Shown here: positions 6,657 to 64,000 of the stretch, in pieces | Numbering within the stretch: position 1 is the first letter of the stretch | How the letters are laid out: the number at the start of each line of letters is the position of its first letter | From: Octopus vulgaris | Taxonomy: Eukaryota | Length of the DNA stretch: 64,000 bases | NCBI GenBank assembly: GCA_951406725.2 | Contig: OX597814.1 | Coordinates: 63,922,001-63,986,000 of the forward strand | Direction of reading: 5' to 3' | Notes under the pieces: generated by a model | What the model saw: the letters and a program-made list of their open reading frames with translations, nothing else | What the model was told of the DNA's origin: nothing | The model's database searches: none | Position numbers and translations under genes: made by a program

Positions 6657-7730
6657 GAAGGAAGGAAGGAAGAGAGAAAGAGAGAATTAAAGGAAGAAGC
6701 AAGCGCACGTAAAAAAAAAAGAATTACAATACAATACAGGCGGAGGGAAGACGAGAGAAAAATAATACAAAAACAAAGCAAAAGACCGACAGAGAAAAAT
6801 AAAATAAAATAAAATAAGGAGAAATATATTATACGAAGAAAGAAGGAGAAAGAAGAAAGATGAAAAAAAGAAAGGAAAACTGAAAAGAAAAGAAGAAAAG
6901 GAAGCATATGTTCCGTGGTGAGAAGAAGGCTGACTTTTCATGACACTCGGAGACTCGAGCGTGTAAACTACCTTAGAATGTGCAGAGTGGGAAACCAGCA
7001 CTGCTCTGTCCGGAATAATGGGTCGACAGCAACTAAACCGGCGGTAATAATGGTCTCTCTGCTCCAACAGCAACAGCACAGGCGACGACGGAATACCCAC
7101 CCCAACTGCCGCCGATACAACAATATTCACCACCGATACCATCGACGGCGGCGGCGGCGGCGTCGACGACGACGAAGACGATGGCGACGCACACGGCGAA
7201 GACGCTATCGCCACCACCATCATCACCACAATCATTATTACCATCATCACCACCACCACTGCAACCATCGCTTTCATCGCCACTACTACAACTACCACCA
7301 AGTTCACCGCCCCCTGTGCCGCCACCGCCGCTACCATCGGCGCCAACATAAGAACGACCACCGACATCACCATAGTCATTACCGATATCAATACAATCAT
7401 CACCGCTGTCATCACCACTTCCACAGTCTCCATCACCACCACCATCACCAGCAGCAACAAGAGCAACAAAAACAACAACAACAACAAGCAAAACAATATT
7501 TTCATCGTAGCCACCACCACCACTGTCACTGCCACTACCATAAACACAGCCGAAAATACAATAACCACAACGACAACCACAAACACAATCACCATTACAA
7601 CCTCAATCACAAGCAGGAGCAAAATCAACAACAACAACAACTGCAATCAAAATATTACCGTCATCAAAGACACTACCACAAACAGTACCAGCGTCAGCAT
7701 CACCACCACCACCACCACCCTACTACAGCG

Positions 7731-10700
7731 ATGTGTTTCTTGGCAATAGTAGCTGTGGTGGCGGTGACGACGTCAGCGGCCGTCATCAGAGTACCTGTTC
7801 TACCGACGTCAACTTTACTACACTCTACTACTACTACTACTATACCAACGACAACAAAAACTGCTAGTGATACTACTGCAACCAATACTACCACTAATAA
7901 TACTAATACCTATATTTCTATTACAACTTCTTCACCTACTATCGCTACCAGTGCGACTACTACAACTATTATTACTATTGATGCTGTTGTTGTCGTTGAT
8001 GCTACAGGTGTTGAAAAGAAAACTGCTACAAAAACAACAGCTACTACTACTACTACTACTACTATCATCTCCACCACCACCACTACTGCAGCTACTACCA
8101 ATACTGAAAAAAATACTACAACTTTTACTACTGAAAAGTCTACTGTTACCCCTACAGGAACTGGTAACATTATTATTACTACTGTTACATGTAATTCTAG
8201 TGAGACAATATCGTTTGCTGGCATTAATTTACCGAAAAAAGCGGGTCTCACCTGTACTTCTACACCGTTAACTGGCGCGACATGTCCCACTACCGATCAT
8301 ATTAGCGCTACTGTTGCTGCTGTCGCTACCACCACCACCTCTACCACTACCACCACCACCACCATCACCACCACCACCACCACCGCCACTACCACAACCA
8401 CCACTACCACCACCACCACCACTACTACTACTACTGGTTCAGCCAATGGAATGAATGATGATGATGATGGGAATAAGATTACCAATTCTCATGCTAACGT
8501 TTCTAATATTACTGTTATCTTTCTCAAAGCAACTTCTATCAAATGGAATTGGAATTATATTGTTAAAAGTTCTTTCATGTATAACTACAATGTTACAAAG
8601 AGGGATACATGTTTTAAGCTGTCAACTTTCTTTAATGAATTTATTGACAGGAAAGAAATCAAAGAGAGTGGAAAGTTTGTTGAGTTCAAAATGTGTTCCG
8701 ATTACTGTCGTATGATGGAGGAAATATTGTCAAAAAATGCAGTTCGGACAAGAAATTCTTACCTGGCGTCCACAAAAATGTCGATTCGCAAGATACCAGA
8801 TTCGGTATTGATGGAAGATTGGAAAATGAAACGAGAATCACAGTCAGATGGAGATGGATTCCTTGATAACGAGAGATATACAACAAAAACCCACTGGAGG
8901 GGCATTAAGAATTTACTCGAAATATATAAGATAACTGGATTAAAAAACTCAGAATCATCTCAATCGTATAAGTGGAAAACTGTCGACTGCTGGGGGCGAA
9001 TACTTGAAACGAAACATATAGCATTAGTAGATCGCTCAGAAAGTCATCATGGAAACACAATAATCGTCAAAAAACTATTGCATGGATGGACCAATGATAT
9101 AACTTGTAACACGACACGAACATTCAATGAGTCGAAAAATATTACTTTTCCGTTATTGCAACAATGTTTAAAAAGATGGCCGACCCAAAAGCAATTAAAA
9201 AGAATGCGTGGATTACATTACATAGAATGTCAAGATGTAGTTGATGACCATGTGTTGTTTATAAAATACCACAAAGTATCCTCGAAGAAATATTTTGTTA
9301 CAAAAATTACTCCTTTAAGAAATCCTAGTTATGGACATTGGATTGATTGTAAAGACAAAGTTAAAATAATCCAATTACTTAAGATAGACCGATCCATTGT
9401 TTCTTCACATGACAATCAGAAGAAATTAAGAAATGAGGGGAAATTGGAACACGAAAGTACTTCACATACACTGTCTGCATCAAATTCTGATGATAAAAAT
9501 AATAAGCAATCACAAGCATTTAATAAAAAGTACCCTCACTGGAATAAGACAAATGCCATCAGAAAAGTGATCAATTTTGGAAATTGTCTTGTGAGAGTCA
9601 AAGATTCGAAGGACTATCTTGATGTTGAAACTAAAATCTTTAGAAATTCAAATAACAAAATTCTGAAAATCTGTTTTCAAGATAGAGGAAGTCATAAAGA
9701 AGGATTACTTGTGGAAAGTAACCAGTTTTGGACACTATCAAATGGAAATAAAAAGAATCACACTGAAAAATGGAATTATGGAAACTTGGTCCATTCTGTG
9801 GCTATTTCTTCAAAGGACGTGAAAGATGGTGGCACGCGTAATGTTATATGCAACAGCTGTGATAAGAGTAATGCCGGTGATGATGTAAAAGATGTAGAGG
9901 AGAGAAATTTTGGAAAATTTAGAGAATCAAGGGTTCCGAGAAGTGTTACTGAAAGTAAACATAGTCAAAAATATTACGGGATTTCTGAGAGAATGAAATA
10001 TTTTAGATTTAAAGATATATATTTCACTGACCAGGTAACTAAACAAAACTATGAAACTACTCACAGAAACAATGCTTTCAGAATAAACTCGAGAACAGTA
10101 TGCAGATTTAATGAAAACGCAACGTTTTACAACATCCGCTTGAATAAGAATTTTTCTTCGCGTAATGAAACTGGATTTTACCAGGGTGATGAAAATATTT
10201 TTTACAACAAATACGATCACGACATGCATAAGCATAGACATAAGGATATGAATGACACAAGTACATACTGGATTGATTATGCACAGTACAAGGAAGAAGA
10301 ACGATATAACAGACTTATGAAATCATTGCATCTGCAATACCTTCCAGATTATCATTATGAACAGGAAGAACACAAAGGTGACTTTTATAGTGAACAAGAC
10401 AGCGGGGTTCCAAAATATTTTATCGAAAGACAACGACTCCAAGATTCAGAAGGAAACTATCCGCATCATAGGACACCCAAGAAAAAGAACAAACCCTGCG
10501 GGAATCACGGCCGATATCCAAAGCACACAGGAGGATTGAAAAATCTTATTCATCATCCACAACAATATATAGAACCGATGCACACATCCAGAGGCATACG
10601 AGTTCGGTACGCACGAGATGTCAGACAATCGTCATCTACAGCTTCACTATTTCCCGGATATGGTTTCGGAAATGCAGCGTACTTTTCTGGAAACAGACAA

Positions 10701-10824
10701 CTTTTGCAACTAAAGTTAAAAAGAAAATATGGAATGTCAAAATCTATGATTCCAAGGCAACAATTTACCATTGAGTTCTGGATGAAACCCGAAGGAGGGC
10801 AACATAATCCTACCGTTATTATTG
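7731..10824 (+). CDS. PAPPA: Pappalysin (PAPP-A-like metzincin) first coding exon; alternative in-frame ATGs at 6978 and 7050
   Basis: C-terminal part AAYFSGNRQLLQL..IPRQQFTIEFWMKPEGGQHNPTVIIG matches the start of the pappalysin LamG-like domain (vertebrate ALYFSG..PRDAFTLQVWLRAEGGQRSPAVITG, from recall). It follows RVRYAR|D (10599-10619). Signal-like MCFLAIVAVVAVTTSAA starts at 7731. The frame ends at the donor G|GTGAGT. Confidence 0.88.
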
Positions 10825-10830
10825 GTGAGT
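10825..10830 (+). other. 5' splice donor (phase 1)
   Basis: ATT G|GTGAGT consensus donor; homology stops here and an in-frame TAA follows immediately. Confidence 0.9.
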
Positions 10831-11165
10831 AAAACAACATTGTATATTATTTTAGACTTGCATATGCATATTGTCTCTTAATATATTATATATATATAAA
10901 ACGTGACGGGATGCGTGTATACACCATTGAACAGGCCGAAAAGGGTTGAAATAATTAGTTAATTAGATGAAAAGTATAAAATTACACTTTTTTCCAGTTC
11001 TCAAAGCATTTCTTATATTTTTATTCACATATATAAATTTATTGTTGTGAAAACTCTTAACATTTTCGATATATAATAAGTGGTAACTCGTTAAGGGGCG
11101 AGCGGACAGCGGGAGAAATCTTCCAATGAATGATTCCCGTCAAACAGGTGCATCTGAAACTAAGG

Positions 11166-11499
11166 CAGTGGTTCTCAACCGAGGTCCTTATGGCCCTTGA
11201 GCGTCCATATAAGATTTTGGCGGGTTCACTCAACAAGATAGTAAACTGGAGATCGACAATAGTATCCCCTGGGAAAATGTTGCTTTAGATGTATGTATTG
11301 GTATATATTGTAAGAAACAGTTGTCTTTGAAATTTTTCATGACTCAACCTACAGAAGTTGATGTTTGAAAAACAAAGTAGGAATTTTGAAAAAATTTTCT
11401 GTAATACTAGTTTTCAAACACCAAATGGTAATGGGAATCCACCAGTATAAAATATGAATCAATGGGGTCAATATACAAATTAACGGTTGAGAGACCCTG
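11166..11499. mobile_element. hAT-type MITE
   Basis: TIRs CAGTGGTTCTCAACC / GGTTGAGAGACCCTG; 8-bp flanks AACTAAGG and CTCTAAGA match at 5/8 and resemble a Charlie-type target. Confidence 0.7.
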
Positions 11500-13029: not shown

Positions 13030-13372
13030 AAATCCTTAAATCCTTAAATCCTTAAAAATGTTTTAGCCCGAAGGCCGCGGCCATGCTGGGGCACCACCGC
13101 TGAATGAGCTACACTAGTTTGTGAATCCACCTCTGATACGTGGCACTTGATCAACAAGGGAGTTCGATGCTGCTGCCCGCATCCGTGTCTCCTGTCGTGA
13201 GGTAGGTTCATCTGGGACTCCCAACAAGAAGAGATCCAGTTTAGTTTTAAAGAAACCCACATCCACACCATGTAAGTCTCTCAGGCATTTAGGGAGGATG
13301 TTAAAGAGCTGTGGTCCTCTGAAACCCAAGCTGTTGCAGTATCTGGACCTGTATTTTGATGGTGATGTTGGA
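13030..13372 (-). mobile_element. 3' fragment of a CR1/L2-group LINE with an 8-mer tail
   Basis: SLGFRGPQLFNILPKCLRDL..FFKTKLDLFLLGVPDEP ORF2 C-terminus, short 3' UTR, and three copies of AAATCCTT at 13030-13053. Confidence 0.75.
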
Positions 13373-13832
13373 TATATATATATACAACCATATACACACA
13401 TATGCACATATATATATATATATATATATAAAATCCATGTATATACACACACAAACACTCACAACATATTTATAGATAAAGGTGACTGTCTGGGGATGAA
13501 TCTCGCTTCTCATCCATGTGGTCTTCCGTTCAGTCCCACTGCGCAGCAGCTTCTACTGTGGCACCCGGACCGACGTAAGACTTGTGAATGGAATTGTTTG
13601 ACGAAAGCTGAAAGAAGCCCGCCATATGTGTGTGTGTGTGTGTGTTTAAATATGTGGAAGTATCTGTCGTGTTTCTGTCTCCCGTAACTTAGTGACCCAT
13701 TGAGTAAGTACCTGACCCTAAAAAATTTACTGGGGCAAATTTGTTCCAGTAAGACTTTCAGTGCTCTGCCCCGGCGTATCAGCTGTTACACGGCTTACAT
13801 CAAAGATAAAATATGTATGTATGCATGCATGG

Positions 13833-44121: not shown

Positions 44122-45389
44122 CGAGGGAGGGTCAAAAATTATACGCACACTTGTTTTTTTAATGTATTTACGCAAAAGCAGGGGATAAACAAATACGTCA
44201 TTTTTCTATATAGTCTCCTTCCTTTTCGAGGCACTTGGTCCGGCGGTCCACAAGCTTGCGTATTTCCTCTAAGAAGGCTTTTCGGTTGATAGTGCAACCA
44301 TTTATGCACCACTTCCTTCACATCTTAATCCGTAAGAAATCGACGAACTCGTAAACCATGTTTGAGCGGTCCAAAGATTTGATAGGGGCGAGATCTGGGA
44401 TGTAGGTAGAGTGTTCCAGCACCACAAAACCCAATTGGTTAATGGTTTCAACGGTCTGGGCGGCCGTGAGTAAGGGTGCATTGTCTCGCAACAACAAAAC
44501 TGTCTTCGACAATTAGGCTTCGGTGTTTGGTGCGACTTGCTGGCTTCAGTTTGTTGACCAGCAAAGTACTGTATGTTGCACTGTTGATTGTACACCCCTT
44601 TTTCCAGCTGGTTTTCCAGTATAGTCACTTTTGATTCCCCAAAAAGGGTTAGCATCACCTTTCCCGCGGAAAACTGAGCCTTGAATTTCTTCATCATTGG
44701 CGAGCCAGGCTGTCTGCACTCTACACTCCGTCTTTTGGTTTCTGCCTCACAATGATGGACCCACGTTTTATCTCCTGTGACTATTCTGTTCAAAATTCCT
44801 CACCCTCATTGTTGTAGCGATCGAGTAAACTTTAGCAGATCTCAAGACGTTTGCGTATGTGCTCTACAGTAAGCTCTCTTGGTGTCCATCTTACACAGGC
44901 TTTGTGGAACCATGACTAATCTGCAGAGAACGAGTCACCTCATCGATGATAACTCGCCGGCTCACCATTATCATCTCACGAGTTTGCTGAATTTTCTCAT
45001 CAGTGGTGGAGGTTCACGGGTGTTCTGCGCCCGCTTCGTGCGCCACGCTTGTTCGGCCACTTTTAAACTTCTCGATCCACTCATGCACACTTCTACGCTG
45101 TAGTGTACTGTCCCCGTATTGCGTTAAAAGCCTCCGATGAATTTCAGTACCTGACACACTTTCCGACCAGAGAAATCGGATCACTACTCTTTCGTCTTCT
45201 TTGGTGCATATTGCTAGTGGAGCGACCATGCTTACACTGTCAAGCCAAAAAGGAAAATGGTGCGATCAGGCTCAAACTTGGATCATGTAACCACAATAGT
45301 GCCACCTATAAACACGCATGCGTAGAAGGCAGTGTGACAATGATAAAGATATATTATGACGGAAGTGTGGATAATTTTTGACTTGCCTC

Positions 45390-58175: not shown

Positions 58176-59445
58176 CAGGGGTTGGACAAAATAATGGAAA
58201 CACCTTAAAATTTCTAACAAATTTACTTTAATATGGGGTGGGACTGCCTTTGGCAGTAATCACAGCTTCAATTCTACGAGGTATGGACTCATACACAGTT
58301 TGAATTGTTTCCAAAGGTATTTTTGTCCATTCTTCAGCTAAAACAGTCTCCAGTTCTTGTTGGAGGATATCGACTCCTTACTTGTTTTTCTAAAATACAC
58401 CATAAATGTTAAATAATAATGAGATCAGGGGACTGTGGTAGCCAGATAAGATGTTCAACTTCACTATAATGTTCCTCGTGCCATTCAGTAACAACTTTTG
58501 CTGTGTGAATTGGTGCATTATCACCCTGAAAGATTGCGTTTCCCTCCGGAAACAGTTCCGCAACCATAGGATGAGTTTGATCAGATAAAATGCTTAAATC
58601 GACTTGACTATTAATTTTGCCATGCAGAGAAACTATTGGGCCGGCGGATTTCTAAGATATAGCCCCCCCCCCCCTCACCGATCATCACAGATCCTCCTCC
58701 ATATTTAACAGTTGGAAGAATGCAGTCTTGGTCAAATGCTTCTTTTGGCTGTCTCCACGCGTATACTCGGCCAGTAGTCAGAAATAAGGTAAAGGATGAC
58801 TCTTCAGATAAAATAACATTCTTCCACTGCTCTAGGGACCAATTCTGTAGGTTTTTACTCCACTCTAAACGCTTTGCAGCGTTTGTTTTTGAAAGTAGTG
58901 GTTTTCTGATTGCAGCCCTCTCGTGAAATCCGGCTTTGTGCAGCTCCCGGCGAACTGTTTTTGTGGAAACTGGTTTCTCGAGGTGATCATTAAGCTCTGC
59001 AGTAATTTTGGGAGCTATACTTTTGTGATACTTTCTAAACTTCGCGTATGAATCCGACGGTCCCTATCTGAAAGTTCTTGTTTTCTTCCAGAGTTTTGCT
59101 TCCACGAGGAGGTTTTTCCTCTTCCTCAAAGGCTGTTGTTACTTTCGAAACAGTACTTCTCGATACACCAAACATTTCGGCTGTTTTCGTTATGCTAATG
59201 CCTGCCATACGAGCACCAGCAATTTGACCTCTTTGAATGTCCGATAGATTTGTCATTTTAATGAATTTTAATGACCTTTTTCTGATGATATCTGAAAAGA
59301 AGCAGCAATTTTAGCAAAACATATTAAGCAACACTAATAATAAATTTTTAAAAAAACATAAAAATAAACAAGTTTTTGACGGATTTATAGATATTTCAAA
59401 ATTATGATGCTATGCTAGGCGTTTCTATTATTTTGTCCAACCCTG
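58176..59445 (-). mobile_element. Full-length decayed Tc1-like transposon
   Basis: TA-flanked TIRs CAGGG(G)TTGGACAAAATAAT.GAAAC.CCT; transposase MTNLSDIQRGQI..FGVSRSTVSKV, ILSEES, FQGDNAP, PQSPDL motifs. Confidence 0.92.
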
Positions 59446-60728: not shown

Positions 60729-63467
<2,739 letters not shown>

Positions 63468-63479
63468 CACCATTTACTT

Positions 63480-64000
63480 TTAAACTGTATGTTTCTTACA
63501 ATTACTTGCCGAGACACACCTAGCGTCCTAGGGTGAGAGAAGGATAAGAGATGTCATAGTATGACTGAAAGCTTGGGGAAGGGAAGTGGCAGGGACTGTA
63601 GCAAAATATCTTCATGCAATGCAACACAGACATTTAAATTGATAGGGTTTTTCTAAGGATGTGGGCAGTACTTGTCAGCACAATCTTTTGGATTTCTCTG
63701 AGACATGGTCCTCTTGGGATATTATCTAGATTTTTCTGATATACCTTTCTTATCATACCTAGGATGCCCATAAAAACAGGAATAGTTCTTGCTTTAAGAT
63801 GCCGCATCTTTTGTATTTCAATTTGCAGAACCTTATATTTACTTAATTTGTCAAATTCTTTTACAGATATATCTTTATCAGTGGGAACACCTACATCTAT
63901 TAGTCTACAAGTATTTTCTCCCATGTCTTTAATGACAATATCTGGTCAATTAGACTGTATCGTTCTGTCGGTGTTGACTGGAAAATCCCAAAATTACCTT
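63480..64000 (-). mobile_element. 3' end of a second, diverged R4/Dong-type element
   Basis: LIDVGVP..KLSKYKVL..IQKIVLTSTAHILRKTL parallels ORF 60827..61066 but with a different 3' UTR. Confidence 0.85.

What the first reader, a model, noticed from the sequence alone, without database searches (positions are those of the whole stretch)
7731..10616. Pappalysin with a ~960-aa prepro region encoded in one exon
Seen: 962 codons lie between the signal-peptide ATG (7731) and the RYAR|D site before the LamG-like domain, with a Thr-rich tract and then a K/N-rich, Cys-containing region without stops. Established (recall): human PAPP-A and PAPP-A2 prepro parts are about 80 and 230 aa. Inference: a lineage-specific expansion that may regulate this IGFBP-type protease or act as a separate secreted product. 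About 700 codons of AT-rich, non-repetitive open frame argue for selection.
Basis: partly seen in the sequence, partly recalled or inferred. Interest (0 to 1): 0.75.

Follow-up and report, generated by a model that had tools for sequence, protein, structure and literature searches.

The report
Octopus protease with giant propeptide
In a genome that is likely an octopus's, the gene for the zinc protease pappalysin has about 960 codons in front of the enzyme (human versions: about 80 and 230), and RNA covers most of them; this fast-changing front part is likely a floppy, sugar-coated piece cut off by furin, ending in a short conserved cysteine motif that may keep the enzyme inactive.

Summary
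Confirmed. Exon 1 of a single-copy, catalytically intact invertebrate pappalysin has 962 stop-free codons between ATG 7731 and RYAR|D. One contig of a probable RNA run covers 8444-10717 without gaps, and another joins the exon end to exon 2, 82 kb away; two large runs that look like DNA read on into the intron. Two unnamed relatives, probably other cephalopods, have 1,119 and 1,134 residues before the same site; 15 other hits and 36 published rows are far shorter. The long part changes fast: no match between octopus and relatives beyond the last ~100 residues, 45% identity between the two relatives, and 9 missense to 2 silent variants. Its open frame needs no function of its own, because it links the signal peptide to an intact enzyme. 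Best reading: a loosely constrained, glycosylated spacer in front of the ancestral propeptide core, whose Lys-Pro-Cys-Gly motif resembles the cysteine switch of microbial pappalysins. 'IGFBP protease' is not supported for invertebrates. The start codon is unproven. The scan has no earlier pappalysin-propeptide note.

The parts
6845..7730 (+). Long 5' leader (most likely UTR) of triplet repeats with four out-of-frame uORFs (ATG 6908, 6940, 7018, 7181; 11, 8, 9 and 56 codons) and two in-frame ATGs (6978, 7050). Use of ATG 7050 would add a 227-aa His/Arg/Gln-rich N-terminus. The left end is where a contig reaches, not a mapped start.
   Evidence: Contigs of probable RNA runs cover 6900-6996 (X2, with 55 more letters before it), 6923-7421 in pieces (X12) and 7268-7842 (X19, kind not on record). 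Two of three + frames are open in 7050-7730, so openness here is weak evidence.
7731..7787 (+). Likely signal peptide (about 18-19 aa)
   Evidence: The only strongly hydrophobic stretch of the ORF (best 10-aa mean 3.33). No SignalP available.
7785..8438 (+). Thr-rich, mucin-like tract (aa 19-236), built largely of ACT/ACC triplet repeats
   Evidence: 47% Thr; ACT 50, ACC 35, ACA 15 codons. P0003 and P0004 also begin Thr/Ser-rich (33-35% of the first 240 aa). RNA cover is patchy because repeats are skipped.
8439..10490 (+). Single-copy, non-repetitive, Lys/Asn-rich pro-region expansion (aa 237-920) with 12 N-glycosylation sequons and R-x-x-R sites at aa 734, 737 and 861
   Evidence: One gap-free contig 8444-10717 in run X1. 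No Pfam match.
10491..10514 (+). Conserved propeptide core motif KPCGNHGR (Cys923, codon 10497); candidate cysteine switch
   Evidence: 8 of 8 residues identical in P0003 and P0004. Aligns with a propeptide Cys in 9 of 15 short relatives and in most published rows.
10599..10616 (+). Predicted furin-type site R-V-R-Y-A-R|D
   Evidence: R-x-x-R|DVR stands at the same place in P0003 and P0004. Cleavage not tested.
10617..10824 (+). Start of the mature protein (laminin-G-like domain) and the GT splice donor of intron 1 (82,462 nt; exon 2 lies outside the window at G000:C1:64015287)

Best explanation
The 962 codons are the open 5' part of exon 1 of an intact, single-copy pappalysin gene, covered by RNA contigs over 8444-10717; they likely encode a signal peptide, a predicted O-glycosylated Thr tract and a fast-changing, probably mostly unfolded spacer, all likely cut off by furin at RYAR|D. 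The expansion was likely inserted in a cephalopod ancestor between the signal peptide and the ancestral short propeptide core. That core (Lys-Pro-Cys-Gly, a His-rich stretch, the furin site) is the part that likely matters: its Cys would bind the catalytic zinc, or shield a free Cys, while the enzyme passes through the secretory pathway. The long part is tolerated because it is removed, and it stays in frame because any stop would kill the only copy of the gene. Shown: frame, transcription, splicing, intact catalytic motifs, shared architecture, fast change. Inferred: start codon, glycosylation, cleavage, disorder, role of the Cys, the taxon of the relatives.
For: Gap-free contig over 8444-10717 (X1) and a contig joining 10322-10826 to exon 2 (X4), with no cover of unique intron at 10982-11138 in 4 of 4 runs. 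Large runs X17 and X18 read on into the intron. The exon 2 motif occurs once, 82 kb away, behind an AG. HExxHxxGxxH and Met-turn exon: E 5e-28 to PAPP-A2. Exon 3: E 1e-57; an SCR exon: E 1e-13; an LNR3-type exon seen by motif. Single copy. P0003/P0004 share the layout but align to the window protein only over aa 862-1031; a profile of their pro regions scored no better on aa 237-915 than shuffles (140 of 488 scored shuffles reached its best-domain score; 12 of 500 shuffles were not scored). P0003 against P0004: 45% identity in the pro region (472 of 1049) and 86% (60 of 70) in the mature piece, with 29 gaps. Variants: 9 missense, 2 silent, 0 stops, 0 indels in 8439-10616. FoldIndex-type score negative in 81%, 93% and 95% of windows. 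Mirolysin latency uses Arg21-x-Cys23-Gly, and S1' takes Lys or Arg (PMC6949598); the window has Lys921-x-Cys923-Gly.
Against: No single contig links ATG 7731 through the Thr repeats to 8444. The runs' RNA status is a guess by the tool; only X4's splice is shown outright. P0003 and P0004 have no signal peptide in their called ORFs (best 10-aa hydropathy 1.4-1.5), so their true starts are unknown. A length near 1,000 aa in two lineages with no sequence match left, a 19-aa identical block and 5 aligned basic sites in P0003/P0004 are more than a neutral spacer predicts. Eleven variants give little power. The octopus region has 14 Cys and 11% aromatic residues, which could mean folded parts; both AlphaFold models were uninformative (pLDDT 29.7 and 25.2, low even on the known domain). 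In animals the LG domain lies between the Cys and the catalytic domain, unlike mirolysin, and 6 of 15 short relatives lack the Cys.
Confidence: 0.55

Rival explanations
1. The expansion is a functional secreted product. After furin cuts, the mucin-like and basic fragments act on their own or stay bound, and store or tether the protease in matrix or mucus, as TGF-beta prodomains do (recalled).
For: Length and the Thr-rich-then-basic layout are kept in three sequences. P0003 and P0004 share 5 aligned basic sites in the pro region and a 19-residue identical block ending in basic residues. Net basic charge (K+R 125, D+E 87) and 12 sequons.
Against: None of those blocks is detectable in the window protein. 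The variant ratio is neutral-like. No Pfam or PDB match to the region.
Confidence: 0.22
2. Translation starts at ATG 7050 or 6978. The 227-aa His/Arg-rich N-terminus stays in the cytosol, the hydrophobic stretch acts as a type II anchor, the Thr tract is a stalk, and furin sheds the protease from the cell surface.
For: Both ATGs are in frame, and 7050 has A at -3 and G at +4. The leader is covered by contigs, one spanning 7268-7842. Indels seen downstream of 7050 are 3 nt. 0 of 2000 base shuffles left the frame open.
Against: The leader is made of triplet repeats: two of three + frames are open, and triplet shuffles left a second frame open in 894 of 2000. Three-base indels are expected in such repeats. 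Human PAPP-A also has a long 5' UTR (PMC10885503). Thirteen of the 15 short relatives have a hydrophobic stretch within their first 45 residues.
Confidence: 0.13
3. The long frame is translated rarely or not at all; the main product starts at a later ATG or uses an unseen upstream exon spliced in near the furin site.
For: Contigs cannot show starts or minor forms. No contig spans the whole exon.
Against: 726 open codons against at most 195 in shuffles. No joint into 8440-10620 is listed in either call apart from one 21-letter repeat match in X18. No other hydrophobic signal lies near the furin site. Two relatives keep frames of about 1,190 codons at 42% identity.
Confidence: 0.07

Closest known systems
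Invertebrate pappalysin (invPAPP-A; MEROPS M43 label recalled; Kjeldsen & Oxvig 2025, PMC11925022; read parts 1-5 of 9 of the text, term searches, supplement parts 1, 28, 33-35)
   Same: LG domain, catalytic domain with HExxHxxGxxH and Met-turn, LNR modules, SCRs, LNR3; one gene copy. The paper's table lists three Octopus pappalysin accessions.
   Different: In its 36-row alignment every row has at most 420 columns before the LG domain; here there are about 980 residues. The main text has no occurrence of propeptide, pro-peptide, signal peptide, octopus or cephalopod. The Octopus sequences were not seen in its pappalysin alignments, so their annotated lengths are unknown to me.
Human PAPP-A and PAPP-A2 (PDB 8a7d, 7y5n, 8hgg, 8sl1; PMC10613257, passages read)
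   Same: Domain order; a propeptide that is removed; a propeptide Cys next to basic sites. PAPP-A2 also has a lengthened pro region (234 aa with signal).
   Different: The pro region here is 4 to 12 times longer and starts with a mucin-like tract. In PAPP-A2 the conserved Cys lies near the N-terminus with extra sequence after it; here the extra sequence lies before it. IGFBP substrates are shown only for the vertebrate enzymes.
Unicellular pappalysins mirolysin and ulilysin (Guevara et al. 2020, PMC6949598, abstract and passages read)
   Same: A basic-x-Cys-Gly motif in the pro segment (Arg21-x-Cys23-Gly; here Lys921-x-Cys923-Gly).
   Different: Their 34-residue pro segment abuts the catalytic domain and is removed by autolysis. 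Here an LG domain intervenes and removal is predicted to be by furin. The paper claims the switch only for unicellular members.

Membership tests
Animal pappalysin (invPAPP-A) | N-terminal laminin-G-like domain | tested here: met
   PDB hit E 4.4e-6; exon 2 passes the Pfam Laminin_G_3 cut-off, 28.3 against 27.6
Animal pappalysin (invPAPP-A) | HExxHxxGxxH zinc motif and Met-turn | tested here: met
   L005:762-1097; E 5e-28 to PAPP-A2; Pfam M43 22.3 bits, just under the cut-off of 23 for this single exon
Animal pappalysin (invPAPP-A) | LNR1-2 inside the catalytic domain | tested here: met
   Exon 3: Pfam Notch 23.7 bits, over the cut-off; E 1e-57 to PAPP-A
Animal pappalysin (invPAPP-A) | M region and five SCR modules | tested here: inconclusive
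   One SCR exon confirmed (E 1.4e-13). Other M and SCR exons were recognised by eye; 5 of 7 such candidates had no Pfam match and 2 had only weak ones below cut-off. Not all exons were traced.
Animal pappalysin (invPAPP-A) | C domain with LNR3 | tested here: met
   L013:4605-4850 has the LNR3 Cys pattern, compared by eye with published rows; no score computed
Animal pappalysin (invPAPP-A) | Signal peptide and propeptide removed at a basic site | tested here: inconclusive
   Hydrophobic N-terminus and R-x-x-R site present; start codon and cleavage not shown
Vertebrate PAPP-A/PAPP-A2 | Cleaves IGFBPs | not testable with these tools
   PMC11925022 argues invertebrate members lie outside the IGFBP system
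Cysteine-switch zymogens (mirolysin type) | Basic-x-Cys-Gly motif in the pro segment | tested here: met
   Lys921-Pro-Cys923-Gly, identical in P0003 and P0004
Cysteine-switch zymogens (mirolysin type) | Short pro segment directly before the catalytic domain | tested here: not met
   The Cys lies 39 aa before the furin site and the LG domain follows
Cysteine-switch zymogens (mirolysin type) | Cys binds the catalytic zinc and blocks activity | not testable with these tools
   No full-length catalytic domain sequence was on hand; no complex was predicted

The most novel reading that the evidence does not exclude
Cephalopods have turned the pappalysin propeptide into a ~1,000-residue mucin-like, multiply cleaved carrier (possibly membrane-anchored) that holds the protease latent until furin releases it. 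The Cys that does the holding is a switch kept from Trichoplax to human PAPP-A, so animal pappalysins, including a human drug target, would have an unrecognised latency peptide.
Probability: 0.2. Interest if true: 0.75.

Novelty: new variant of a known kind. Interest (0 to 1): 0.5.

Why it matters
The domain layout of animal pappalysins is described as fully conserved, yet here the precursor has gained about 900 residues in one exon, apparently across cephalopods. It is a clean case of exon growth inside a removable propeptide. Because nearly everything else in the region has drifted, it points to the few residues that persist: a Cys motif and the furin site. That Cys also stands in the propeptides of 10 of 10 jawed-vertebrate PAPP-A rows and 12 of 14 invertebrate rows of a published alignment. 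This makes a testable question for human PAPP-A: does its propeptide keep the enzyme latent? If the long part proves inert, the finding is a curiosity and a gene-annotation fix.

Tried and rejected
Three word-index protein searches found nothing: pro region against longer proteins and near lengths, exon 2 against longer proteins; these are weak negatives. Exact look-ups of four versions of the window ORF were not in the collection. A genome search with Pfam M43 missed the catalytic exon; a genome walk found it. Both AlphaFold models were too poor for a fold search, so none was run. No RNA holder is on record as RNA. Four same-label runs held next to none of the words; not used as evidence. Origin of aa 250-956 from a repeat or duplicate: the DNA has one match in the genome, itself, though that search skips common words. 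A tree of the ~50-aa LG piece grouped P0003 with P0004 (0.97) but gave no support for joining them to the window protein; only identity (65-67% against 42-56%) supports closeness. No complex prediction was sent. Literature: 'pappalysin'+'octopus' 0 papers; 'PAPP-A'+'octopus' 3 unrelated; at least two of pappalysin/cephalopod/squid/mollusc/cuttlefish: none of the 20 listed held 'pappalysin'; propeptide searches listed no paper whose title or abstract start concerns latency of animal PAPP-A (listings only, except the papers named); a search for a long-prodomain analogue gave 0. PMC9579167 has none of six propeptide terms. Subscription papers were not searched, so older work on the human propeptide may exist.

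Full report
1. The observation. The + strand holds one frame without stops from 6864 to 10832. From ATG 7731 it reads a hydrophobic N-terminus, a Thr tract (aa 19-236, 47% Thr), 726 Lys/Asn-rich residues with 14 Cys, then RYAR|D at 962/963, nt 10617. The 726 codons are far beyond chance: 1000 base shuffles gave at most 195 codons in any of six frames, and the other five real frames have 31-84 stops. The region is not repetitive and has one match in the 2.8-Gb genome, itself. The organism is inferred to be an octopus from genome size, repeat style and earlier scan notes; I did not test this further.

2. The gene. The 69 residues after the site match PAPP-A2 and PAPP-A. Exon 1 ends at 10824. Exon 2 lies outside the window at G000:C1:64015287, behind an AG, after an intron of 82,462 nt. 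A walk of 200 kb found exon 3 (E 1e-57), the catalytic exon with HExxHxxGxxH and Met-turn (E 5e-28), an SCR exon (E 1e-13) and an LNR3-type exon at about C1:64120600 (by motif). I did not trace every exon. Exon 1's LG piece and the catalytic exon each match once in the genome. The precursor would be about 2,500 aa (inferred from the human mature length).

3. Transcription. Of 24 runs listed, 20 hold part of the stretch and none is on record as RNA; I laid 8 of them. In X1 one contig of 2,312 nt covers 8444-10717 with 2 differences and no gaps. In X4 a contig covers 10322-10826 and goes on into exon 2. In X2 a contig covers 9885-10826 and has 272 further letters that are not shown. All four runs have no cover at 10982-11138 in the intron. 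The large runs X17 and X18 read through the donor into the intron, as DNA should. Limits: contigs show no starts, and none links 7731 to 8444 across the triplet repeats; pieces cover 7268-7842 (X19) and 8101-8314 (X1, X18).

4. Relatives. A search of 1.84 billion representatives gave 17 hits, all ending near the same intron. P0003 and P0004 have 1,119 and 1,134 residues before the mature start, begin Thr/Ser-rich and share KPCGNHGR and R-x-x-R|DVR. In the other 15 the last basic site before the domain falls at residue 65-111 in 14 and at 200 in one. In the 36-row alignment of PMC11925022 at most 420 columns precede the LG domain. No other octopod exon 1 was found.

5. Constraint. P0003 and P0004 are 45% identical in the pro region and 86% in the mature piece. 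The window protein aligns to P0003 only over aa 862-1031, and a profile of the two pro regions did not beat shuffles on aa 237-915. Eleven variants in 8439-10616 from the eight runs are 9 missense and 2 silent; a twelfth, at 7351, lies outside and was left out; neutral sites predict 3.9:1. Some rest on single shallow contigs. No stop or indel was listed, but under one stop is expected in 11 variants. The frame is therefore under selection over long times, while the residues look nearly free. The simplest cause is that a stop anywhere between signal peptide and enzyme would destroy a single-copy gene. Against pure neutrality: length and layout persist, and P0003/P0004 share a 19-aa identical block and 5 aligned basic sites. 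No fold could be assigned.

6. The conserved core. Cys923 lies 39 residues before the furin site (36 and 34 in the relatives). A Cys 18-26 residues before the last basic site occurs in 9 of 15 short hits. In the published alignment, read by eye, it occurs in 10 of 10 jawed-vertebrate PAPP-A rows, 1 of 2 lamprey rows and 12 of 14 invertebrate rows (missing in Lingula and in a Bugula row that starts later); 8 of 10 PAPP-A2 rows have a Cys near the N-terminus instead. Mirolysin is kept latent by Arg21 in S1' and Cys23 of a Cys-Gly motif on the zinc (PMC6949598). The window's Lys-Pro-Cys-Gly fits that pattern; many other animals have the Cys without the basic residue or the Gly. This is resemblance, not a test: the LG domain lies between.

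7. The start. Two in-frame ATGs lie upstream, and 7050 has the best context. The leader is triplet-repeat sequence in which two frames are open, with four short uORFs, and human PAPP-A has a long 5' UTR too (PMC10885503, passages). I take 7731 as the start and give the membrane-anchored reading 0.13.

8. Comparison and novelty. This is a member of invertebrate PAPP-A by the features tested. PMC11925022 lists Octopus pappalysins but analyses mature domains only and places the group outside the IGFBP system. My ten searches of the held library found no description of the long pro region; subscription papers and the annotated Octopus protein records were out of reach. An unchecked scan note reports a ~1,200-residue single-exon insert in a peroxidase of this genome, so such growth may be a wider habit of cephalopod secreted enzymes; this is a lead only.

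9. Verdict. Real, transcribed, probably shared across cephalopods: a new variant of a known protease. Interest 0.5.

Noticed in passing
window 10491-10514 and PMC11925022 supplement, parts 33-35: A propeptide Cys is kept from Trichoplax to human PAPP-A; PAPP-A2 rows keep a Cys near the N-terminus. The paper's main text does not mention propeptides.
   Followed up: partly
window 6845-7730: Long triplet-repeat leader with four uORFs and two in-frame ATGs; the second + frame reads as a 232-aa Thr-rich stretch much like the coding Thr tract, hinting that the tract arose from the same repeats.
   Followed up: partly
P0003 aa 980-998 and the matching part of P0004: A 19-residue identical block ending in basic residues inside the fast-changing pro region; a candidate processed peptide, not detectable in the window protein.
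   Followed up: no
window 61096-63072 (-) and 63634-63945 (-): 658-aa ORF that looks like a non-LTR retrotransposon reverse transcriptase with a poly-Glu repeat inside, in intron 1 (label from recall, not tested).
   Followed up: no
window 13114-13687, 44302-44799 (-), 58611-59063 (-): Fragments that look like a retroelement and mariner/Tc1 transposases in intron 1 (labels from recall, not tested).
   Followed up: no
window 11139-11452: A repeat in intron 1 draws many contigs at high depth in 4 of 4 runs; probably a common transcribed element.
   Followed up: no
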